UHGV virus genome: UHGV-0112704
Length of the DNA stretch: 38,905 nucleotides
From: a virus
Strand: one strand, 5' to 3'
The notes under the pieces were generated by a model. It did not search any database. It saw nothing but the letters and a program-made list of their open reading frames with translations, and was not told where the DNA came from. A program made the position numbers and the translations under genes. Positions within the stretch are counted from its first letter, which is position 1, and each line of letters begins with the position of its first letter. This document shows positions 3,321 to 38,905 of the stretch, in pieces.

Positions 3321-3435
3321 AAATTAAGCCCATAAAAAACCGCCAGAGTGGGTTCAATGGATGGCTAGATAAATACTCATACTAATCGCCGTAGAGCGAA
3401 CCTGCGCCAGCGTTTAATACTAAGGAGAGTCACTC

Positions 3436-3969
3436 ATGGGATTCAAATTCAGACAGCGCATCAAAATTGCACCAGGCATTCATATAAACATAGGTAAAAC
3501 AGGCATTACTAGCGCATCAATTGGTAAGGCTGGTGCTACCCTGAACGTTGGTAAAAAAGGGGTAAAGGCAACCGCAGGCATTCCCGGTACCGGTTTGTCT
3601 TACACGAGTGGAAACTTGCTCGCGGGTCAAAAGAGCTCCACCGGTAAACACGCTGAGAACGTAGAGGAACAAGCACCTGAGCGGCTTGGTTTCTTTTCGG
3701 ACTCAACGTTGTTAGAGGATGGTCAGGAAGATATTCAACCACCTCGCCCATTGGTCATGGTATTAACCCATAAGCAATTTAGAAAACTATCAACCGAGGA
3801 GAAAACGGCATTTAAAAATGCAGGTGGTAAGGTGAAGTTTTCAATAGGCGAGAAAATTTTTATTCTCACAGTCATTATTTTTGCTCTTGGCTGGCTTTCA
3901 GATCGTCACCCACCAGAAAAAACCAATTCCAGCGTAACGCAAGAAGTAAAATCTTCAGTTAACAACTGA
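3436..3969 (+). CDS. DUF4236-family protein with C-terminal transmembrane segment (moron)
   Basis: 177 aa; N-terminus MGFKFRQRIKIAPGIHINIGKTGITSASIGKAGATLNVGKKG...GTGLSYTSG matches my recollection of the DUF4236 signature; C-terminal hydrophobic stretch IFILTVIIFALGWL; AAGGAG Shine-Dalgarno before the ATG; opposite orientation to the surrounding tail genes. Confidence 0.55.
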   Translation: MGFKFRQRIKIAPGIHINIGKTGITSASIGKAGATLNVGKKGVKATAGIPGTGLSYTSGNLLAGQKSSTGKHAENVEEQAPERLGFFSDSTLLEDGQEDIQPPRPLVMVLTHKQFRKLSTEEKTAFKNAGGKVKFSIGEKIFILTVIIFALGWLSDRHPPEKTNSSVTQEVKSSVNN

Positions 3970-30984: not shown

Positions 30985-31896
30985 TTACCCCCTGAATCCG
31001 GGTGGGATTGTTTTGTCTGGCTCAGAAATGCGGTTCACATCCCTGCCCGTTTTGCGAGCGTTGAGAGCGAACTTCGGTTTAAACAGTCCCTGGTACCCGT
31101 TGGCGATACTGGTGTTGATCACATCAACGGGGTCATGCCCAGCGTCCAGGCAAGCCTTGAGCAACTTGAATGCTTTGGTGACCGTCATTTCGGTCTTGAT
31201 GGCTTTGCCAGACTGTTGGCGGTAGGCCACCCACTCACTCCAGGACACAGAATCAAGCCACTCAGGAACGGGAATCGTCAGCGGGTCAAACTTACCCTTC
31301 CCCTTTGGGGGATTAGAGGGGGTTAGATCTGTATTTATATTTGTATTTGGAAGAATGTCTTTGGTGTTCCCTGTTTTCAGGGATACCTCTCCCTGTTTTT
31401 GGGGATGGTTATCCCCGTTTTCAGGGATGATTGAAGGGGTAAAATTGCTATCCCTGAATTCAGGGATGGTAATAACCCATGTGACAACTTCAGCAGCAGG
31501 AAACACCGCTGGACACTTCATGCAATTTGGCTTGGTATACGCCCATTTATCCAGGCTGGTATTAATCCCTATGTATCTGGTTTGCCCAATGCGGCGCAGG
31601 ATGATGATGTTCCGATAGGCAAGGCTCAACACGGCTTCAGAGACGTGTTTCACCTTCAGCGTCGTTTTATCTGCAATGAGGCTATTGGCGATGCGGTCAG
31701 AACTCTTAGACCAGCCATAGGTCAGACGAACGATAGCATTCAGCACCCGGAACTCGCGCCCGGATAGTTCGACGATACACAGGGCATCCTGAATCTGGTT
31801 GGCCAGGCGCAAATAGCCTTTCTCCAGTTCAGCCATGCTGCTCTCCTGTTTCCCCTGCTGTGTGGGGAATTTGAATATTTCAGCGGTATTTGACAT
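30985..31896 (-). CDS. replication initiator, lambda O-like
   Basis: MSNTAEIFKF...LRLANQ...FRVLNAIVRLTYGWSK resembles the lambda O N-terminal domain as I recall it. Iterons and an AT-rich stretch lie inside the gene. The ATG at 31896 (GGAG 7 nt upstream) is preferred over the track start at 31929. Confidence 0.8.
   Translation of the reverse strand: MSNTAEIFKFPTQQGKQESSMAELEKGYLRLANQIQDALCIVELSGREFRVLNAIVRLTYGWSKSSDRIANSLIADKTTLKVKHVSEAVLSLAYRNIIILRRIGQTRYIGINTSLDKWAYTKPNCMKCPAVFPAAEVVTWVITIPEFRDSNFTPSIIPENGDNHPQKQGEVSLKTGNTKDILPNTNINTDLTPSNPPKGKGKFDPLTIPVPEWLDSVSWSEWVAYRQQSGKAIKTEMTVTKAFKLLKACLDAGHDPVDVINTSIANGYQGLFKPKFALNARKTGRDVNRISEPDKTIPPGFRG
31368..31467. repeat. replication origin iterons (four copies) with adjacent AT-rich region 31331-31360
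   Basis: TCCCTGTTTTCAGGGAT (31368-31384), TCCCTGTTTTTGGGGAT (31390-31406), ATCCCCGTTTTCAGGGAT (31411-31428), ATCCCTGAATTCAGGGAT (31450-31467), each an inverted repeat, inside the O-like gene; AT-rich stretch GTATTTATATTTGTATTTGG on the downstream side. Confidence 0.75.
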
Positions 31897-31980
31897 ACTG
31901 TTCTCCGCAATTACGCACAGTTTTTGCACCTGAAAGCCGTTGGTGTTCGAGCACCGCGGCTTTCGCCATTTCTGAGCCCG

Positions 31981-32538
31981 TCATAGCGCACCACCCAGCA
32001 TCGTTGTAACCATCGCCATAATGGGCGCCACAGAATCAGGTCCGTCCAGGTAGAGCTTGGCTACGATGCTCTCGCTGATTTCCTTCATCCGTTCGTGTCT
32101 GGGGGCTTTGAGGACGACAGCCTGTATCGCCTCAGCGTCTTCTTTCACCGACCTGGCGACACGAACCGCAAAGCAGTCGTGCTTAATCACGCGATCCCGG
32201 TACGCCAGCGGCAGAACCGAAATTATTACCGGCGCCAGCTGCTCGACGTTCGCCCGGTAGGCCGGTGATTTCTCGTGGTTGTCCAGCCAGCGAAACAGCT
32301 TCACGTTCCACACATCGGCGCTGCCGGTCATGTCAATGCTGTCAAGCTCGGCCTGTTCGGCAGCCTCTTTAATCGCCAGAGCGACCGCCACGCGGCCCTC
32401 TGCCGCCGCCCAGGCGCGGACGGCAGAACAGATAGCCCGGTGATCGACCGGCTGGCCTTCAGCCTCACTGTGTTGATACTGGAATTTCAGGTGCTCTGAT
32501 GGCGCTCTGTTATTCTGTTGAAAAGAAAGTGTTTGCAT
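31981..32538 (-). CDS. YdaT-like protein (cII-position)
   Basis: 185 aa; central region resembles the Rac prophage YdaT pattern as I recall it; AGGAG before the ATG; directly downstream of the Cro/YdaS-like gene. Confidence 0.5.
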   Translation of the reverse strand: MQTLSFQQNNRAPSEHLKFQYQHSEAEGQPVDHRAICSAVRAWAAAEGRVAVALAIKEAAEQAELDSIDMTGSADVWNVKLFRWLDNHEKSPAYRANVEQLAPVIISVLPLAYRDRVIKHDCFAVRVARSVKEDAEAIQAVVLKAPRHERMKEISESIVAKLYLDGPDSVAPIMAMVTTMLGGAL

Positions 32539-32549
32539 TGTCAGTGCTC

Positions 32550-32768
32550 CTACTTTGGTAATCCGTCAGTGGGATTTGGATAGAGATCAGGGCGCAGCTC
32601 GTGGGGGGTTACGCCTGTCATTTTGAAAATCGGGAAGATATAGCTTGGCGGGACGATCCCTTGGTCACGATTCTTCCAATGACTTACAGACATACTCGTC
32701 ACACCAAGCGCGATGCTGAGCTTTCTGGCAGAGCCAGCGGCTTTAATTGCTTTATCGAGTGCGGACAT
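32550..32768 (-). CDS. Cro-like HTH regulator (YdaS family)
   Basis: 72 aa; HTH LSIALGVTSMSVSHWKN; divergent from the repressor gene across an operator-containing intergenic region. Confidence 0.7.
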   Translation of the reverse strand: MSALDKAIKAAGSARKLSIALGVTSMSVSHWKNRDQGIVPPSYIFPIFKMTGVTPHELRPDLYPNPTDGLPK

Positions 32769-32870
32769 GTGCTTCTCCTGCTTATTGATAGCAGAAGTAA
32801 ACCACAGATTTATACTTCATGCAAACTTTGGATTTATTGCGTGCATAAACCAAATATTTACAATGACCAT
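32769..32870. promoter_or_regulatory. divergent promoter/operator region between the Cro-like and repressor genes
   Basis: 15 bp sites TAAACCACAGATTTA (32798-32812) and TAAACCAAATATTTA (32846-32860), plus inverted repeat TTTGGATTTAT/ATAAACCAAA (32827-32854); the same site type recurs at 34274-34288. Confidence 0.45.
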
Positions 32871-33260
32871 ATGAGAAAAGAAGAACCCAACCTCGTTCTG
32901 GTGGAGCGCCTTACTGAGATCACTGATCGCGGCGTTACCAAAGCAGACATGGCAAGAATAGCTGGAGTCACCCCTCAGGCCGTAAACGGCTGGTTCAAAA
33001 AAGGCGTGATTAGTAAGAAATCGGCACTGGCCATAGCCGACGCTGTTGGTATTTCTGTCGCCTGGCTACTCGGTGAAGACGTTGGGGAGAAAGACGGTCT
33101 CAAACCGGACGAACAGCGTTTGCTCGAGCTCTACCGCCAGTTACCGGAAGAAGAGCAGCAGAACATGCTCCGCATTTTTGCGCTTCGCCTGAAAGAGTTA
33201 GATGAGCTGTACGAGAAGTACATGAAGGGTCGGATTCGATCGCAAGGTGAGCAAACCTAA
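32871..33260 (+). CDS. cI-like immunity repressor (XRE-type HTH, no S24 peptidase domain)
   Basis: 129 aa from the ATG at 32871; HTH ADMARIAGVTPQAVNGWFKKG; helical C-terminus. The track ORF 32601-33260 carries an implausible upstream extension. Confidence 0.7.
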   Translation: MRKEEPNLVLVERLTEITDRGVTKADMARIAGVTPQAVNGWFKKGVISKKSALAIADAVGISVAWLLGEDVGEKDGLKPDEQRLLELYRQLPEEEQQNMLRIFALRLKELDELYEKYMKGRIRSQGEQT

Positions 33261-33324
33261 ACCAGTAGTATCTAATTCCATGTAATAAAAATATTTCAAG
33301 ATTTAATATCTTCTGGAGGATTCG

Positions 33325-33606
33325 GTGTCTAAAGAAACAACCGTCGAACTTATGCATCTTAATGATGTAATCGAAGCGAAAAATTTCATCGAGACCAATG
33401 CTGACGGTGTCGTAACAATCGGCACACAAAATGCCGGTTACGAAGTTTACAATTTTGTGTTCCTGAATAGCAGCCCGATCATCGGTACGGATAATGCGGA
33501 TATAGTCGTCAAGGGCATGCAGCGAACCAAAGTTGTGTCTGTGACTTTAAGCAAACAAAAGGCTTATGATTTTTATCAATCCTTAAAAAGTATGTTTGAG
33601 GAATAA
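33325..33606 (+). CDS. hypothetical protein (93 aa), first gene of the immunity-linked cassette
   Basis: GTG start with GGAGGA 4 nt upstream; 65 nt after the repressor stop; about 40% GC. Confidence 0.5.
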   Translation: MSKETTVELMHLNDVIEAKNFIETNADGVVTIGTQNAGYEVYNFVFLNSSPIIGTDNADIVVKGMQRTKVVSVTLSKQKAYDFYQSLKSMFEE

Positions 33607-33612
33607 TAATTG

Positions 33613-34134
33613 ATGGATGCGGCTCAATCATCTCTTGGTGAAGGGAAGTTATTGATTGCATATTCAGACCATAGCGGAGCTACAGTAGGCTTAGAGTTTT
33701 CATCAGTAGCTTCGAGCCAAGCAACCTTCCTTATGGGTGCTTGTAGTTTTGCCGCTTCGGATAAACAAAAACGGATTGTCACATCAGTTGCTATGGATGA
33801 TACTGAAATCATTCATACGTCAACTGAAGATGGAGGTGACGACATGGAAAAGAGATTGGCTATTCTTGAGGTTGAAGTTGCCCACATCAAGAAAGATGTT
33901 GCCGAGATAAAAAACACAGTTTCAAAAGTTGATACGACAGTGAATTCACTGGACAAAAATATGGCTGTAGTTTTGGAGAGGCTGTCTAGTATCAAAGAGT
34001 CTGTAGACAAAAAGCCCTCATCAGACACAGTGGACAAGAAAATCTCTGATGCTAAATTGGCGATTCTCTTAGGTGTCCCTGCGATTATCGCCATTGGTAC
34101 AGGGCTGTACAAAGCTTTTATGCACTTCTTTTAG
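33613..34134 (+). CDS. coiled-coil protein with C-terminal transmembrane anchor, second gene of the cassette
   Basis: 173 aa from the ATG at 33613 (track start is a TTG at 33610); heptad-like stretch EKRLAILEVEVAHIKKDVAEIKNTVSKVDTTVNSLDKNMAVVLERLSSIKE; C-terminal helix LAILLGVPAIIAIGTGLY; begins 7 nt after the upstream stop. Confidence 0.55.
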   Translation: MDAAQSSLGEGKLLIAYSDHSGATVGLEFSSVASSQATFLMGACSFAASDKQKRIVTSVAMDDTEIIHTSTEDGGDDMEKRLAILEVEVAHIKKDVAEIKNTVSKVDTTVNSLDKNMAVVLERLSSIKESVDKKPSSDTVDKKISDAKLAILLGVPAIIAIGTGLYKAFMHFF

Positions 34135-34206
34135 TCAGATTTGGTCAATACGCCTGAGTTATAAGGCTCTCAGCTACTAACTCTGTCGCCTTCCCCGAAC
34201 CTTCTC

Positions 34207-34235
34207 ATCCCGACCACGCGTCGGGATTTTTTTTG
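34207..34235 (+). terminator. strong intrinsic terminator ending the repressor operon
   Basis: CCCGAC-CACGC-GTCGGG followed by ATTTTTTTTG. Confidence 0.7.
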
Positions 34236-34273
34236 CCTGCGATTCTGCAGACGTGTCACAAAACCCAGCCACA

Positions 34274-34337
34274 TAAACCTCAGATTTACAATTAACACCA
34301 ACCTTAAGTTGACATATATATAAACCAGTGATTTAAT
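34274..34337 (+). promoter_or_regulatory. pL-like early promoter with upstream operator-type site
   Basis: TTGACA (34309-34314), 17 bp spacer, TTTAAT (34332-34337); operator-like TAAACCTCAGATTTA at 34274-34288. Confidence 0.45.
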
Positions 34338-34589
34338 CTAACTCACCAAGACGCACCACGAACCACCCAGGCATGGAGCCCACGAAGTAGCCGTCCGGGG
34401 CATACGAAAACCGGAATGAGGTGGTGAGATTAACGCGCAGTAGGTTTGAAACGTTCCGCCAGCCTGGCGACAAGGGCAAAGCACAGAGTGAGCTTCGCGG
34501 TGGTGAATTGCAGAGTTAAAACGCTCAACCGTGAAGATCAGCGCCGCGGCACCACCAGCGAAGTTCACTCAGAAAAACTGGAGAACATC

Positions 34590-34796
34590 ATGGTTCATCA
34601 GCACTACGGTACACAGACAGTAAACCGCGGCGCAGTTCAGCCGGGGATGCTCGTCAAACACAAAGACTCAACCTGGACGGCATCAGCTAACGCTCGCGGA
34701 CGTTTGTATCTGCATCGCGGCGTAGAAATGACTTACACCAAGGATTTGCTGGTTGAAGTTTATCTGAACGGTCTGGGGCATGGACTCAGCCACTAG
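34590..34796 (+). CDS. small early protein (68 aa)
   Basis: ATG at 34590 with GGAG 7 nt upstream; the track ORF 34446-34796 is extended upstream. Confidence 0.4.
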   Translation: MVHQHYGTQTVNRGAVQPGMLVKHKDSTWTASANARGRLYLHRGVEMTYTKDLLVEVYLNGLGHGLSH

Positions 34797-34807
34797 CGGA
34801 GGATGTC

Positions 34808-34969
34808 ATGTTAGACAAGAAATGCGGATATTGCGGCAAGCCGGTTAAAACGGAGGAAGTAATCAAGAGCACCCTTCTCTATCGCAACGGCTCACAGCTG
34901 GCGCGCAAAGAAAAAGAGTATTGCTCCAAACGTTGCGCTTCGCACGACCAGATGGCTCACGAAGGCTAA
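34808..34969 (+). CDS. small zinc-binding protein (53 aa)
   Basis: Not in the ORF track (under 60 aa). GGAGG 5 nt before the ATG; MLDKKCGYCGKPV...YCSKRCASHDQ gives a CxxC...CxxxC arrangement. Confidence 0.4.
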   Translation: MLDKKCGYCGKPVKTEEVIKSTLLYRNGSQLARKEKEYCSKRCASHDQMAHEG

Positions 34970-35107
34970 CGTAAAACCCGCGCAAGGCGGGATTCACGTC
35001 CGGTGCCACCGACCAAAGTTACACCGGAATTTATACCAAACCAAAAAACATCCAATGGGCGCTATCTCTGGCCCGGGGATTCTAACACTCAAAAAAGAGG
35101 ATCTCAC

Positions 35108-37771
35108 ATGGAATTTTTCCATCTGATAAAAGCCAGTCAGAAGTCTGGCAAGAAAGATGCAGTGATTTGGTTCACTGCGAAAAGTGTAGCGCGCGCCAAT
35201 CTCCAACTCGATGTGGCACTGGAAGAAGCCGGAATTGAAGAAACTGGCCGCGGTAAAGATTATGCCAAACCAATCCGCACCGATTTCCCGGTATATGACG
35301 ACCTGCCGGAAGAAGGCGCAGTGGATTACACCTGGTGCAAACGCTACGAACTGCAGAACGATGACCGCACCTGGCTGCCAAAAGTCACAGCTGAAAACTC
35401 TGACGAGAAAACGGCTCAGACCGTTGATAGTCACATAACTACTGAGTCAACGCTGCCAGAAACCGCTGGCATCACGCTGGACGAACACGACGACGACTCA
35501 ACCCTCTACCCGGTAGTGCAGATGCCGTTTCGTAAGCAACTGCTTTCCCAGTTCACCGCCGACGAACTGCGCCACCACGTAACCCGCGAAGAGTACGAAG
35601 CTATCGGCGCGCTGGAGATGGACACTGATAACAGTTACGTCCAGAACTTGCTGTTAGCTGCTGAGAACTGCCCGGAAGTGAAGGGTTACGACACCAAAGA
35701 CCTGTGGCGCTACACCGATGCCATTCGCAAAGTGTTCAGCCAGGACAAGCGTCACGAACTCGCGCTGGTACTCCGTTTCACCAGAATGTGGGCGGCGACT
35801 GATTACATTGACCGTGGCATCCTGGCGCGTGAATGGGCTGCCGGTAATCACATCAGTAGTGTTCAGCGTACTGATTCCGGAACCAATGCCAACGGCGGTT
35901 ATGTCACTGACCGTGGACCTGATGCATACCATACCCTTGACACTCTCGATTTAGAGATTGCATGTGCCCTTCTGCCTATGGACTTCAACCATCTGGAAAT
36001 CCCGGGCAGCATCCACCGCCGCGCCAAGGAGATTGTCGCGAACAAAGAAGAACCATGGAAATCATGGAGCAAAATCCTGCGCAACCAGCCCGGCGTTCTG
36101 GCTGTTAACCGCGCGGCCATCTTCAACCTGGTGCGCATCGCGCCTGAGAATATCCACCTAACGCCGGTTGCTCATCTGGAGTTCGTAAACCAGACGATGA
36201 CGGCTGAATTTAATGCTGCGACTGAGTTGCTGCCTATTTATGGCAATAGCGAGCATAAGCAGGAAGTAGTTACCCAGGAAATGGTAGATGCGGCATGGCA
36301 GAAGGTTGATGAAGTGTTGGAAGAGTTTCATGGCGAGTTGAACGCCGGTGAACAAAAACGACCTGAACCTGCGCTTTCTGTTGTGGATCTGATGCGCCAG
36401 CGCGCTGCTGATGAAAGGCTTCACCCAGCAAACATTGAAGCAACCTCCACTGATAGCCAGCCTCAGGTCGCTAACCTCGGCGGCGGCATGTTCTCCATTG
36501 ATGGCCTGATGAGCGAAAAACAACCACAAACAGATGACCGTTCACCGGTTACAGAGGAGACCACCAGCGATGTGCAGATGGAAGAGACTGACCCGGCGGA
36601 AGGAGAAACTGGTAACACGGTTCCACCAGGCGAAAGCTCTGATGCAGCTGATCCGCAAACAGCTTCCCTGACCCCGGCTGAGGTTCTGGCTGCCGTGGCG
36701 CCGGAGCTGGCGAACGACTCACAGCCGGAAATGACCACCGAAGCACCGGAGGAAATCGCCAGCACGCCGGAATACCCTGCCTATTTCGAACCGGGCCGCT
36801 ATGAAGGCCTGCCGAACAACATTTACCACGCAGCGAACGGGATCAGCAGCACCCAGTTGAAAGATGCGCGCGTTAGCCTGATGTTCTATCACGGTCGCCA
36901 CGTGACCAAGACAATCCGTCGCGAGAGCAGCGAGGCGCTGACGTTCGGTAGCCTGTCTCACACGATGGCACTGGAACCGGAAAAGCTTCACGAAGAGTTC
37001 GCGGTGTTCCCGGGCGTTCCGGAGGGAGCATTTACCACTACCGACTCCATGAAGGCGTTCATCCGCGAATTTAATGCGGATAAGCCAAAGGCCGAGCAAC
37101 TGAAGCTCACAGGCAAGAAAGAGGAACTGCAGGCGGCGATCCGCGCGGTGAATCCGGATGCCATTTTCGCTGATGAGTTCGAGCAGGAATGGCGAGATAG
37201 CGTTGCCGGGAAAACCATCCTGTCCAGTGAGCAGTTGGCGCTGGCCACGGCAATTCAGCAGGCCCTGCTTAACCATGAATCGGCCGGAAAACTACTGCGC
37301 CACCCTTCCCGTTCAGTCGAAACCAGTTACTTCGGTATGGACGACGAAACTGGCCTTGAAGTCCGTGTACGCCCGGACCTTGAGGTTGAAATAAACGGCG
37401 TTCGTATCGGCGTTGACCTGAAAACGATCAGCATGGGCCGCGTTAAGCAGGAAGGCCTGCGCGCCAAGCTGCACCGGGAAATCATCGACCGCGATTACCA
37501 CCTCAGCGCGGGCATGTACTGCAGCGTCGCTGACTTTGATCAGTTCTTCTGGATCTTCGTTAACAAAGACGAGGGTTACCACTGGGTTGCGGTCATTGAG
37601 GCTTCGGAGGAACTGCTGGCGCTTGGCCGAGAGGAATATCAGAAAACCATGCGCGCCCTGGCTAAGGCTTATGACACCAACTGCTGGCCTGCGCCGATCA
37701 CCGAAGACTACACCGACGAACTGAACGACTTCGACCTGCGCCGCCTTGAAGCGCTGCGTACTCAGGCATAA
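35108..37771 (+). CDS. recE: exodeoxyribonuclease VIII (RecE-like)
   Basis: 887 aa from the ATG at 35108 (AAGAGGA upstream); blocks TDFPVYDDLPEEGAVDYTWCKRYEL and DYIDRGILAREWAAGNHISSVQRTDSGTNANGGYVTDRG resemble E. coli RecE as I recall it; acidic Pro/Glu-rich linker; C-terminal nuclease-like domain; followed by an annealing-protein gene. Confidence 0.7.
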   Translation: MEFFHLIKASQKSGKKDAVIWFTAKSVARANLQLDVALEEAGIEETGRGKDYAKPIRTDFPVYDDLPEEGAVDYTWCKRYELQNDDRTWLPKVTAENSDEKTAQTVDSHITTESTLPETAGITLDEHDDDSTLYPVVQMPFRKQLLSQFTADELRHHVTREEYEAIGALEMDTDNSYVQNLLLAAENCPEVKGYDTKDLWRYTDAIRKVFSQDKRHELALVLRFTRMWAATDYIDRGILAREWAAGNHISSVQRTDSGTNANGGYVTDRGPDAYHTLDTLDLEIACALLPMDFNHLEIPGSIHRRAKEIVANKEEPWKSWSKILRNQPGVLAVNRAAIFNLVRIAPENIHLTPVAHLEFVNQTMTAEFNAATELLPIYGNSEHKQEVVTQEMVDAAWQKVDEVLEEFHGELNAGEQKRPEPALSVVDLMRQRAADERLHPANIEATSTDSQPQVANLGGGMFSIDGLMSEKQPQTDDRSPVTEETTSDVQMEETDPAEGETGNTVPPGESSDAADPQTASLTPAEVLAAVAPELANDSQPEMTTEAPEEIASTPEYPAYFEPGRYEGLPNNIYHAANGISSTQLKDARVSLMFYHGRHVTKTIRRESSEALTFGSLSHTMALEPEKLHEEFAVFPGVPEGAFTTTDSMKAFIREFNADKPKAEQLKLTGKKEELQAAIRAVNPDAIFADEFEQEWRDSVAGKTILSSEQLALATAIQQALLNHESAGKLLRHPSRSVETSYFGMDDETGLEVRVRPDLEVEINGVRIGVDLKTISMGRVKQEGLRAKLHREIIDRDYHLSAGMYCSVADFDQFFWIFVNKDEGYHWVAVIEASEELLALGREEYQKTMRALAKAYDTNCWPAPITEDYTDELNDFDLRRLEALRTQA

Positions 37772-37776
37772 GGGGA

Positions 37777-38898
37777 ATGACGATGGAAAACATGAATATC
37801 GTAAATGCGGAGCAGCAGGCTCCAAACACTATCTCTGCCAGCAACGCCATCTTCAATGTGCAGGCGTTAACCCAGCTGCAGGCAGTTGCCGGTTTGATGG
37901 CGCAGGCCGCCGTAACGGTCCCTGAACATCTTCGCGGCAACCCAGCTGACTGCATGGCCATCATCATGCAGGCTATGCAGTGGGGCATGAACCCGTACGC
38001 GGTGGCGCAGAAAACGCACCTGGTCAACGGCGTGCTGGGGTACGAAGCGCAACTGGTGAACGCGGTGATCTCCAGCTCTAACGCCATTGTGGGCCGCTTC
38101 CATTATGAGTACGAGGGTGACTGGTCGAAATGCGCCAGCAGCCGCGAAGAGATAGTGAAGAAGCCAGCAAAAGGCGGCGGGACGTACGACAAGAAAGAAA
38201 TGGTACGCGGCTGGACCAGCGCCGACGAGCAAGGCCTGTCGGTTCGTGTGGGTGCCGTCATTCGCGGCGAAAGCGAAATCACCTGGGGCGAACCGGTGTT
38301 CCTCTCCAGTGTGATTACGCGTAACTCTCCGCTGTGGATTTCGAATCCGAAGCAGCAGATCGCGTATCTGGCCCTCAAATACTGGGCGCGCCTGTACTGC
38401 CCAGCAGTTGTTCTGGGCGTGTACACACCTGATGAAGTGGAGCAGCGCACCGAGAAGGAGATTAACCCGGCCCCCGCCCAGCGCGTAAGCCTGTCTGATA
38501 TCAAAAGTGACAGCGTAACAACAACGCACAGCGCGCAGGAATCGGCGGCAAACATTGACGCTATGGCCGATGAGTTCCGGGATCGTATTGAAGCGACGCA
38601 GGACGTGGATAACGCCAAAGCAGTTCGGGCCGACATCGAAAGCGCCAAGAACACCTTGGGCTCTGCACTGTATACCGAGCTGAAAAATAAGGCCGTGAAG
38701 CGTTACCACTTGGTGGATGCGTATAACCGGGTCGAGGCAGCAATCAACTCCCTGCCGCAGCCCGGCGAACCGGATGGTGCCGAGCGCTTCGAGGAAGTCG
38801 AGCGCGTGCTGGCGTCAGCCAAACGTCACTTGGGCGATGAGCTGCACGATAAGTTCAGCATCACCCTGGCGGATATGAAACCGGAATACGTGGCCTGA
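37777..38898 (+). CDS. RecT/Red-beta-family single-strand annealing protein
   Basis: Block ADCMAIIMQAMQWGMNPYAVAQKTHLVNGVLGYEAQL resembles the conserved annealing-protein core; partner position after RecE. Start may be the ATG at 37783 (AAGGGG 7 nt upstream). Longer than E. coli RecT, with a C-terminal extension. Confidence 0.55.
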   Translation: MTMENMNIVNAEQQAPNTISASNAIFNVQALTQLQAVAGLMAQAAVTVPEHLRGNPADCMAIIMQAMQWGMNPYAVAQKTHLVNGVLGYEAQLVNAVISSSNAIVGRFHYEYEGDWSKCASSREEIVKKPAKGGGTYDKKEMVRGWTSADEQGLSVRVGAVIRGESEITWGEPVFLSSVITRNSPLWISNPKQQIAYLALKYWARLYCPAVVLGVYTPDEVEQRTEKEINPAPAQRVSLSDIKSDSVTTTHSAQESAANIDAMADEFRDRIEATQDVDNAKAVRADIESAKNTLGSALYTELKNKAVKRYHLVDAYNRVEAAINSLPQPGEPDGAERFEEVERVLASAKRHLGDELHDKFSITLADMKPEYVA

Positions 38899-38905
38899 CG
38901 AGACC

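What the first reader, a model, noticed from the sequence alone, without database searches (positions are those of the whole stretch)
33325..34235. Two-gene AT-rich cassette co-transcribed with the repressor
Immediately downstream of the repressor gene, on the same strand and before a strong terminator, are a 93 aa protein and a 173 aa protein with a long coiled coil and a single C-terminal membrane anchor. This is the slot and operon structure lambda uses for rexA/rexB, so the pair should be expressed constitutively in the lysogen. Neither protein resembles Rex or SieB as far as I can tell, and composition is about 40% GC. I regard it as a candidate undescribed lysogen-expressed exclusion or abortive-infection module, probably acting at the membrane.
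Basis: partly seen in the sequence, partly recalled or inferred. Interest (0 to 1): 0.75.

Follow-up and report, generated by a model that had tools for sequence, protein, structure and literature searches.

The report
Unstudied gene pair in lambda's rex slot
Right behind the repressor of this E. coli prophage, where phage lambda keeps its rexA/rexB exclusion genes, sits a mobile, conserved pair of genes of untested function (a small soluble protein and a membrane-anchored coiled-coil protein), and it is a good but unproven candidate for a new prophage defence against other phages.

Summary
Between the repressor (32871-33260) and a strong terminator (34207-34235) lie two translationally coupled genes. 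orfA encodes a 93 aa soluble, acidic protein. orfB encodes a 173 aa protein with a small N-terminal head, a Gly hinge, a roughly 60-residue unbroken heptad coiled coil and a C-terminal TM helix. The cassette is 41% GC against 50% for the window. It lies inside the immunity region, between two OR-type and two OL-type copies of one 16-nt operator-like repeat.

The pair is a discrete swappable module. The same flanks elsewhere carry other cargo, including the PADLOC candidate PDC-M63. Relatives sit directly downstream of at least six different CI-type repressors across Enterobacterales. They also replace rexA/rexB exactly in lambda-immunity phage HK544, and occur in Stx1 prophage Sp15/CP-933V as ECs2991/2 = Z3359/60. 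Z3360 protein was detected in uninduced O157 cells.

orfA always travels with the orfB head. The stalk/TM module recombines independently and pairs with at least six unrelated partner families. No Pfam, PADLOC, NCBIfam, PDB or fold match identifies a function.

My best reading is a Rex-like two-component exclusion or abortive-infection module with a membrane effector. This rests on position and architecture and is untested. The genes were already catalogued as hypothetical proteins.

The parts
32797..32860 (.). OR-side operator-like repeats: two copies of a 16-nt TAAACCnnnnnATTTA motif at 32797-32812 and 32845-32860, between the divergent cro-like (YdaS) gene and the repressor gene
   Evidence: family D1, four copies, spacing 48 / 1428 / 47
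32871..33260 (+). Prophage repressor, HTH only (DicA/RacR-like, no S24 domain), 129 aa from ATG 32871. RefSeq starts it at GTG 32841, which would overlap an operator copy.
33251..34217 (+). The exchangeable cassette. Homology to related prophages that carry other cargo stops at about 33250 and resumes at about 34218-34228. GC is 0.41.
33325..33606 (+). orfA: 93 aa, soluble, acidic (pI 4.9), predicted beta-rich with a C-terminal helix. PHROG 12039. Always paired with the orfB head domain.
33613..33828 (+). orfB residues 1-72: small beta-beta-alpha-beta head domain plus an acidic/Ser-Thr linker. It co-varies with orfA.
33838..34017 (+). orfB residues 76-135: Gly-rich hinge, then an uninterrupted heptad coiled coil (stalk) ending at the conserved KKPS motif
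34051..34110 (+). orfB residues 147-166: conserved C-terminal transmembrane helix (AKLAILLGVPAIIAIGTGLYK), followed by only 7 residues (tail anchor)
34207..34235 (+). Intrinsic terminator of the repressor-orfA-orfB transcript (counterpart of lambda Timm)
   Evidence: compare the annotated Timm in HK544
34273..34337 (+). OL-side operator-like repeats (34273-34288 and 34320-34335) overlapping a pL-like promoter (TTGACA 34309-34314, 17-nt spacer, TTTAAT 34332-34337) that reads into the kilR/ydaE/recE genes
   Evidence: sequence read; gene content

Best explanation
The cassette is a mobile accessory module ('moron') in the repressor-distal slot of the immunity region. It is transcribed with the repressor in the lysogen.

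OrfB is a tail-anchored inner-membrane protein. An oligomeric cytoplasmic stalk about 9 nm long carries small head domains at its tip, and its C-terminal helices form a conserved TM bundle. OrfA is a soluble partner that docks on the head.

The most likely role is exclusion of superinfecting phages by Rex-like two-component logic. The OrfA/head unit recognises a phage cue in the cytoplasm at the membrane. The change is passed along the stalk. The TM module then compromises membrane integrity or energetics, giving abortive infection.

Shown: gene reality; operon and slot; mobility; modular co-variation of orfA with the head; protein architecture; expression of a homologue in uninduced cells.

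Inferred: OrfA-head binding, oligomeric state, N-in topology, and the whole defence function and its membrane mechanism.
For: Slot:
- The cassette lies between OR-like and OL-like operator repeats, with no terminator before orfA and a strong one after orfB.
- HK544, which has lambda cI and operators, carries homologues exactly between cI and Timm.

Conserved position:
- The pair follows HTH-only, CI_repr and several S24 repressors in E. coli, Citrobacter, Klebsiella, Enterobacter, Cronobacter, Rosenbergiella, Phaseolibacter and Erwiniaceae.

Hotspot behaviour:
- The same flanks carry PDC-M63A/B (a PADLOC defence candidate), a 467-aa orphan, or a Zn-ribbon protein plus two membrane proteins.
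- The literature calls the cI-N interval a mosaic hotspot that holds rexAB and bstA (PMC8585504; PMC7067206).

Two-component unit:
- Partner-orfB gaps of -4 to +12 nt are conserved across partner families.
- orfA identity tracks head identity, while the stalk/TM identity is uncoupled. The coupling holds down to about 35% identity.

Conflict-system-like modularity:
- One stalk/TM type pairs with at least six partner families unrelated by BLAST/PHROG, and one orfA/head pairs with three stalk/TM types.

Other points:
- The TM helix is more conserved than a passive anchor would need (V155 invariant; L152, L153, G154, P156, I158, T163, Y166, K167 at >=90%).
- Z3360 was detected (APEXi 858) in uninduced strain 86-24, where only 13-16% of prophage proteins were seen. 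That strain carries the cassette.
- The cassette has low GC.
Against: - No phenotype is known. No homology to any characterised defence protein was found: PADLOC 2023, Pfam and NCBIfam gave only coiled-coil noise.
- There is no enzymatic or recognisable sensor domain anywhere in the family. All roughly 40 clusters with the full module are 88-185 aa.
- Orphan stalk/TM genes without a partner sit next to an AraC-type regulator in a non-phage context in four Pantoea genomes. The membrane module can therefore persist alone and is probably not intrinsically toxic.
- A Rahnella copy is not next to a recognisable repressor.
- Structure models were too poor to test binding or pore formation (pLDDT 62 and 47).
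- Guilt by position is weak evidence, because this slot could also hold non-defence morons.
Confidence: 0.4

Rival explanations
1. Superinfection exclusion by blocking genome entry (Sie-type, non-abortive). OrfB sits at the cytoplasmic face of the inner membrane, and with OrfA it binds or obstructs the entry machinery, ejected proteins or incoming DNA of other phages, so infected cells survive.
For: The slot and expression evidence is the same as for the main reading. In one Serratia prophage the pair sits as a moron inside the tail-gene cluster. From my own knowledge, HK97 keeps its injection-blocking moron gp15 in that kind of site. The stalk holds variable heads about 9 nm below the membrane, where DNA enters. 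A membrane-bound defence acting during injection has precedent in SNIPE (PMC13190303).
Against: Only about 7 residues lie outside the membrane on the periplasmic side, so there is no periplasmic blocking surface like those of known Sie proteins. There is no similarity to SieA, SieB, Imm or Sp. Several phages that carry the cassette also carry sieB.
Confidence: 0.15
2. Not a defence module. It is a lysogen-expressed accessory pair serving the prophage or host in another way. It could tune the prophage's own lysis timing or holin triggering (the stalk/TM module has the architecture of XhlA-type holin-associated proteins). It could modulate the lysis-lysogeny switch, as RexA also does. Or it could alter envelope physiology, like the tail-anchored ElaB/YqjD proteins.
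For: There are weak architecture-level matches to PHROG 937 ('hemolysin', XhlA-like; E 1.4e-5, residues 77-133) and to SlyX (24.5 bits, below the cutoff of 30). Orphan chromosomal copies conserved at one locus in several Pantoea species suggest a host-level function independent of a partner or a prophage. No defence domain is present.
Against: The matches are within coiled-coil noise, and Pfam XhlA and DUF883 do not hit at all. The genes sit in the immunity operon, not the lysis cassette. Rapid shuffling of partners and modules, and replacement by other cargo at identical breakpoints, is more typical of conflict genes.
Confidence: 0.25
3. A toxin-antitoxin-like addiction pair that stabilises the prophage. 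OrfB would be a membrane toxin held in check by the acidic OrfA bound to its head.
For: The pair is two small, translationally coupled genes, with the acidic soluble protein first and the membrane protein second. The cognate co-variation of orfA with the orfB head is what antitoxin-toxin pairs show.
Against: Partner-less, head-less stalk/TM genes persist in Pantoea chromosomes and as 99-100 aa forms, which argues against an intrinsically toxic membrane module. Many family members have almost no head for an antitoxin to bind. A TA pair of this kind would in any case probably act as an abortive-infection system, so this reading overlaps the main one.
Confidence: 0.08

Closest known systems
Phage lambda RexA/RexB
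   Same: The genomic slot is identical: downstream of cI, inside the immunity region, before Timm and pL. It is co-transcribed with the repressor. It is a two-gene unit of a soluble protein followed by an inner-membrane protein. In HK544 the pair physically replaces rexA/rexB behind a lambda-type cI.
   Different: There is no sequence similarity (no Pfam or PADLOC Rex hits). From my own knowledge, RexA is 279 aa and RexB is a 4-TM protein. Here the soluble partner is 93 aa, and the membrane protein has a single C-terminal TM helix under a long coiled coil. The phenotype is unknown.
HK544c104/HK544c103, ECs2991/ECs2992 (Sp15, VT1-Sakai), Z3359/Z3360 (CP-933V); PHROGs 12039, 12602, 3556
   Same: This is the same family. 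orfA is 75% identical and the orfB head 79% identical, with the same order and the same slot.
   Different: These relatives carry a different stalk/TM module (35% identity, 183 aa). All are annotated only as hypothetical or 'putative membrane protein', and I found no functional study.
BstA (Salmonella BTP1) and other repressor-linked prophage defences
   Same: It is encoded directly downstream of the prophage repressor, presumably shares its promoter, and is followed by its own terminator. The position is conserved across many prophages (PMC8585504).
   Different: BstA is a single cytoplasmic DNA-associated protein, with no homology to this pair. This pair is a membrane-anchored two-component unit.
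Mycobacteriophage Sbash gp30/gp31 and similar 'Rex-like' prophage pairs
   Same: From my own knowledge, only the title and abstract having been seen here: these are lysogen-expressed pairs of a soluble and a membrane protein that act like RexAB without sequence similarity.
   Different: The hosts and proteins are unrelated. From my own knowledge, their membrane partner is multi-pass, not a tail-anchored coiled coil.
XhlA-type holin-associated proteins (PHROG 937) and tail-anchored ElaB/YqjD
   Same: They share the architecture of the stalk/TM module: a short cytoplasmic coiled coil ending in a single C-terminal TM helix.
   Different: The only match is a weak coiled-coil-level one to PHROG 937 (E 1.4e-5). 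Pfam XhlA and DUF883 are not hit. The genomic context also differs (lysis cassette or chromosome, against the immunity operon).

Membership tests
Lambda RexAB | RexA homologue (Pfam RexA family) | tested here: not met
   No Pfam hit for orfA at E<=1 except DUF4313 noise. No PADLOC hit at E<=10.
Lambda RexAB | RexB homologue (multi-pass inner-membrane protein) | tested here: not met
   orfB has one hydrophobic segment, at its C-terminus, and no Rex hit in Pfam or PADLOC.
Lambda RexAB | Location between cI and Timm inside the immunity region, co-transcribed with cI | tested here: met
   Operator repeats lie on both sides, there is no internal terminator, and a terminator follows orfB. HK544 homologues sit between lambda-type cI and the annotated Timm.
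Lambda RexAB | Exclusion of T4 rII and other phages with loss of membrane potential | not testable with these tools
   Needs plaque assays and membrane-potential measurements.
SieB | SieB family domain (PF14163) | tested here: not met
   No hit. Related phages carry a separate sieB gene next to N.
Known or candidate defence systems in PADLOC-DB v2.0.0 | A significant match of either protein to any model | tested here: not met
   orfA has no hits. orfB has only coiled-coil-region matches to LmuB, DruC and JetA at E 1e-3 to 1e-2. The partners of related cassettes also have no hits.
XhlA / holin-associated tail-anchored proteins | Sequence membership (Pfam XhlA) and location in a lysis cassette | tested here: not met
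   No Pfam XhlA hit in orfB or in 29 relatives. PHROG 937 gives only E 1.4e-5 over the coiled coil. The location is the immunity operon.
Bacterial lipoproteins (suggested for Z3360 in PMC3210124) | N-terminal signal peptide with a lipobox Cys | tested here: not met
   The Cys is at position 44 with no preceding hydrophobic segment; the paper itself notes 'no hydr LS', and the maximum KD19 is at residues 147-165. Cys44 is not among the >=90% conserved head positions.
PHROG 12039 / PHROG 12602 / PHROG 3556 (uncharacterised phage protein families) | Full-length profile match | tested here: met
   orfA matches 1-93 of 93 at E 1.6e-47. orfB matches 1-147 of 183 at E 2.7e-54 (PHROG 12602) and its residues 63-173 at E 3.2e-28 (PHROG 3556).
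Type II toxin-antitoxin pairs | Toxicity of one product, neutralised by the cognate partner | not testable with these tools
   Only indirect evidence is available: the genes are coupled and co-vary, but partner-less membrane modules persist.

The most novel reading that the evidence does not exclude
The stalk/TM protein and its exchangeable heads and partners form an unrecognised, modular family of prophage immune systems. In this family a tail-anchored coiled coil relays a cytoplasmic recognition event to a single-helix membrane effector. The family is carried by roughly 6% of complete E. coli genomes, including the Stx1 prophage of O157:H7, and it is the natural alternative to RexAB in lambda-immunity phages.
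Probability: 0.3. Interest if true: 0.7.

Novelty: new variant of a known kind. Interest (0 to 1): 0.55.

Why it matters
How RexAB works has stayed unclear for decades (PMC8585504). An unrelated pair that is much smaller (93 + 173 aa) and occupies the same slot, literally swapped for rexAB behind lambda cI in HK544, offers a compact natural comparison for asking what that slot is selected to do.

The family is common in pathogenic E. coli. The three variants I counted occur in 12-13, 93 and 205 of 5426 complete genomes, and one sits in the Stx1 prophage of O157:H7. Its shuffling of heads and partners against stalk/TM modules gives ready-made specificity-swap experiments.

If the pair is a defence system, it adds a new effector architecture: a tail-anchored coiled coil with a single TM helix. 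If it is not, it shows that the repressor-linked hotspot also carries other lysogen functions.

Tried and rejected
- **Structure.** AlphaFold2 of orfB without an alignment gave pLDDT 62, and orfA with a 13-sequence alignment gave pLDDT 47. This is enough for secondary structure only. Foldseek of the orfB model against BFVD found nothing at E<=0.001. I did not search with the orfA model because it is unreliable.
- **Sequence and profile searches.** Pfam, NCBIfam and PADLOC gave only coiled-coil noise such as SlyX, IcmG and LmuB. PDB profile searches gave trimeric coiled-coil noise for the stalk, nothing for orfA, and WD40-repeat noise for the head. hhalign of orfA against the orfB head showed no relationship (probability 0.6%), so the two are not paralogues.
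- **Family breadth.** A profile search of 1.84 billion representatives found only about 40 clusters with the full module. All are 88-185 aa, with no informative domain fusions. A profile search with orfA added essentially nothing.
- **RNA.** Rfam and tRNA scans of the window were empty.
- **Literature.** No paper mentions the RefSeq accessions or PHROG ids. ECs2991/2 and Z3359/60 appear only in a CGH table and a proteome table. Degnan et al. 2007 and Brenes & Laub 2025 are not held, so I could not check whether either tested this pair.
- **Rejected readings.** The lipoprotein reading of Z3360 is rejected (see the membership test). An i-spanin-like reading is rejected because the TM helix is C-terminal and there is no signal sequence.

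Full report
**What is there.** The window is part of an E. coli lambdoid prophage with a Rac-type early region.
- Leftward genes are a YdaS-type cro (32550-32768, minus strand), a YdaT/CII-like gene (31981-32538, minus strand) and replication genes.
- Rightward genes are an HTH-only repressor (32871-33260), then kilR/ydaE homologues, RecE and RecT.
- Between the repressor and a hairpin-plus-U8 terminator (34207-34235; dG -12.6 kcal/mol, z -2.55) lie orfA (33325-33606, 93 aa) and orfB (33613-34134, 173 aa).
- The 64-nt repressor-orfA spacer has no terminator-like structure.
- The last codons of orfA (GAGGAATAA) supply the Shine-Dalgarno sequence for orfB, 6 nt away.
- The cassette is 41% GC, against 50% for the window.

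**The genes are real.** Both are under purifying selection, with dN/dS of 0.06-0.32 against four diverged copies. RefSeq calls orfA from an internal ATG (84 aa). The 93-aa form has a GGAGG site, matches PHROG 12039 end to end, and is the length of nearly all homologues.

**The slot.**
- A 16-nt motif, TAAACCnnnnnATTTA, occurs twice between cro and the repressor gene (32797-32812, 32845-32860). It occurs twice again just after the terminator (34273-34288, 34320-34335).
- There it overlaps a pL-like promoter: TTGACA at 34309-34314, a 17-nt spacer, and TTTAAT at 34332-34337 (read).
- The cassette is therefore inside the immunity region, between OR-type and OL-type operators, as cI-rexA-rexB is in lambda.
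- Phage HK544 has a lambda-type cI and annotated lambda-like oR/oL, pRM, pL and Timm. It carries homologues of both genes (HK544c104 and HK544c103) exactly between cI and Timm.
- The same pair is in the Stx1 prophage of O157:H7, as VT1-Sakai/Sp15 ECs2991/ECs2992 and as CP-933V Z3359/Z3360.

**It is a mobile unit in a hotspot.**
- Homology to related prophages stops at about 33250, the last codons of the repressor gene, and resumes at about 34218-34228, inside the terminator.
- Between the same breakpoints, other E. coli prophages carry different cargo:
  - a 467-aa orphan;
  - DUF6932 plus a 310-aa protein that match the PADLOC candidate system PDC-M63A/B at E 1e-40 to 1e-44;
  - in phage PHB10, a Zn-ribbon protein plus two membrane proteins.
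- Published work already describes the cI-N interval as a mosaic hotspot that houses rexAB and bstA (PMC8585504; PMC7067206).

**Conserved position.**
- In every lambdoid context I fetched, a relative of orfB is the second gene of a tight pair directly downstream of the repressor and on its strand. The repressors are of at least six types: HTH-only, CI_repr, and several S24 architectures.
- The hosts are E. coli, Citrobacter, Klebsiella, Enterobacter, Cronobacter, Rosenbergiella, Phaseolibacter, an Erwiniaceae genome and, as a frameshifted copy, Symbiopectobacterium.
- There are exceptions:
  - In Serratia grimesii the pair is a moron inside the tail-gene cluster.
  - A Rahnella copy follows a DUF3024 gene.
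  - Four Pantoea genomes have a partner-less stalk/TM gene beside an AraC-type regulator in an apparently non-phage context, once as a tandem pair.
- Among 5426 complete E. coli genomes, the window variant is in 12-13, the O157 variant in 93 and an 87+147-aa variant in 205.

**Protein anatomy.**
- OrfA is soluble and acidic (pI 4.9), predicted beta-rich with a C-terminal helix.
- OrfB has four parts:
  - a beta-beta-alpha-beta head of about 60 residues;
  - a Gly-rich hinge;
  - a roughly 60-residue coiled coil with one unbroken heptad register (16 of 17 a/d positions hydrophobic, mostly Val, Ile and Leu), ending at a conserved KKPS motif;
  - a short helix and a conserved TM helix (residues 147-166), followed by only 7 residues.
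- With no signal sequence and more positive charge before the helix, this reads as a tail-anchored protein with its bulk in the cytoplasm. That topology is an inference.
- A one-heptad indel separates subfamilies, as expected for a genuine coiled coil.
- The TM helix is unusually conserved: V155 is invariant, and L152, L153, G154, P156, I158, T163, Y166 and K167 are at 90% or more.

**Modularity.**
- orfA always co-occurs with the 'GKLLIAYSD' head.
- Pairwise, orfA identity tracks head identity (0.58-0.84 against 0.47-0.85). The stalk/TM part is uncoupled, at 0.32-0.44 where orfA is 0.65-0.84.
- The linkage holds in Rahnella and Erwiniaceae, where both orfA and the head have drifted to about 35% or less.
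- The same orfA/head unit is joined to three different stalk/TM types.
- Conversely, the window-type stalk/TM is joined to short, unrelated N-termini. These pair with unrelated upstream partners of 87, 109-119 (Zn ribbon), 139, 144 and 145 aa, assigned to PHROGs 4231, 4293 and 5893 or to none.
- Partner-orfB junctions are -4 to +12 nt in all of them.
- I read this as a soluble partner docking on the head of a membrane-anchored stalk, with recombination at the Gly hinge. That is inference from co-variation, not a tested interaction.

**What it is not, as far as tools can tell.**
- Neither protein, nor 29 diverse relatives, hits any Pfam, NCBIfam or PADLOC model beyond coiled-coil noise.
- No relative has a solved structure, and the fold search was empty.
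- orfA and the head are not detectably related to each other.
- An exhaustive profile search found only about 40 clusters with the full module. All are small proteins with no enzymatic fusions.
- The lipoprotein suggestion made for Z3360 does not hold, because there is no signal peptide and the Cys is not conserved.

**Expression.** The operon structure predicts transcription from the repressor promoter. Independently, shotgun proteomics of uninduced O157:H7 strain 86-24 (LB stationary phase and piglet gut) detected only 13-16% of prophage proteins. It still listed Z3360 at APEXi 858, in the range the paper reports for Opp and Sdh membrane subunits (PMC3210124). Strain 86-24 carries the cassette.

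**Interpretation.**

| Reading | Confidence |
|---|---|
| Rex-like two-component exclusion or abortive-infection module with a membrane effector | about 0.4 |
| Sie-type block of genome entry | 0.15 |
| Non-defence lysogen function (lysis timing, switch modulation, envelope physiology) | 0.25 |
| Addiction-type toxin-antitoxin pair | 0.08 |

- For the main reading, the OrfA/head unit would recognise a phage cue and the stalk would relay it to the TM bundle.
- The Pantoea orphans argue that the membrane module is not toxic on its own. That favours activation by the partner (RexA-like) over release from inhibition.
- All functional statements are inference. No phenotype exists in the sources I could reach. 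Two potentially relevant papers, Degnan 2007 and Brenes & Laub 2025, were not available.

**Verdict.** The genes are not new to databases, but I found no functional characterisation of them. As a candidate it is well above average: mobile, conserved, modular, expressed, and present in important pathogens. Candidate defence cassettes in this known hotspot are not in themselves surprising, so I score interest at 0.55.

Noticed in passing
window 32841-32871: RefSeq starts the repressor at GTG 32841 (139 aa). That start lies inside an operator-like repeat (32845-32860), so the ATG at 32871 (129 aa) is the more plausible start.
   Followed up: partly
window 33325-33352: RefSeq annotates orfA 9 codons short (84 aa from ATG 33352). 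The GTG at 33325 has a GGAGG site, and the 93-aa length is conserved across the family.
   Followed up: yes
L016:4581-5983 (E. coli 210205630), same slot as window 33251-34217: A closely related prophage carries DUF6932 plus a 310-aa protein in the identical slot. These match the PADLOC candidate defence system PDC-M63A/B at E 1e-40 to 1e-44.
   Followed up: partly
L017:4534-5660 (phage PHB10), same slot: PHB10 carries a Zn-ribbon protein (weakly PHROG 4293, the same family as some orfB partners) followed by two multi-TM proteins. The theme of a small soluble protein plus membrane protein(s) therefore recurs in this slot with unrelated membrane parts.
   Followed up: partly
L026-L029 (Pantoea spp.), about 3400-3800: Partner-less stalk/TM genes (100-159 aa) are conserved next to an AraC-family regulator and EamA/FNT transporter genes, with no phage genes nearby. 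L026 has two tandem coiled-coil/TM genes with different TM types.
   Followed up: partly
L024:3056-3800 (Serratia grimesii): The pair (a 119-aa Zn-ribbon partner plus a 137-aa orfB-like gene, overlapping by 11 nt) is inserted in a tail-gene cluster right after a DUF6246 gene. This is a second moron site for the same cassette.
   Followed up: partly
L030:3300-3847 (Symbiopectobacterium MAG): The orfB homologue downstream of an S24 repressor is split by a frameshift into 127-aa and 60-aa pieces, so it is probably a pseudogene in a degrading symbiont genome.
   Followed up: no
window 1-31864 against 31865-38905: Only the part from 31865 onward is 99.9% identical to the ECCWS199 prophage that carries the identical cassette. 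The replication, late and structural regions differ, matching in patches at 93-95% or not at all. The immunity/left-arm block is therefore shared among otherwise different prophages.
   Followed up: partly
window 33421-33463: A 12-nt inverted repeat (GGCACACAAAAT / ATTTTGTGTTCC, 92% complementary, 19 nt apart) lies inside orfA. I did not examine its significance.
   Followed up: no
L002:5552-5749, L010:4411-4614, L012:4553-4756, L018:4845-5189, L020:5025-5234: Several related loci have a small gene (65-114 aa) called on the opposite strand just downstream of the pair. No convincing counterpart is seen in the window, where the minus-strand ORFs at 34170-34568 look non-coding.
   Followed up: no
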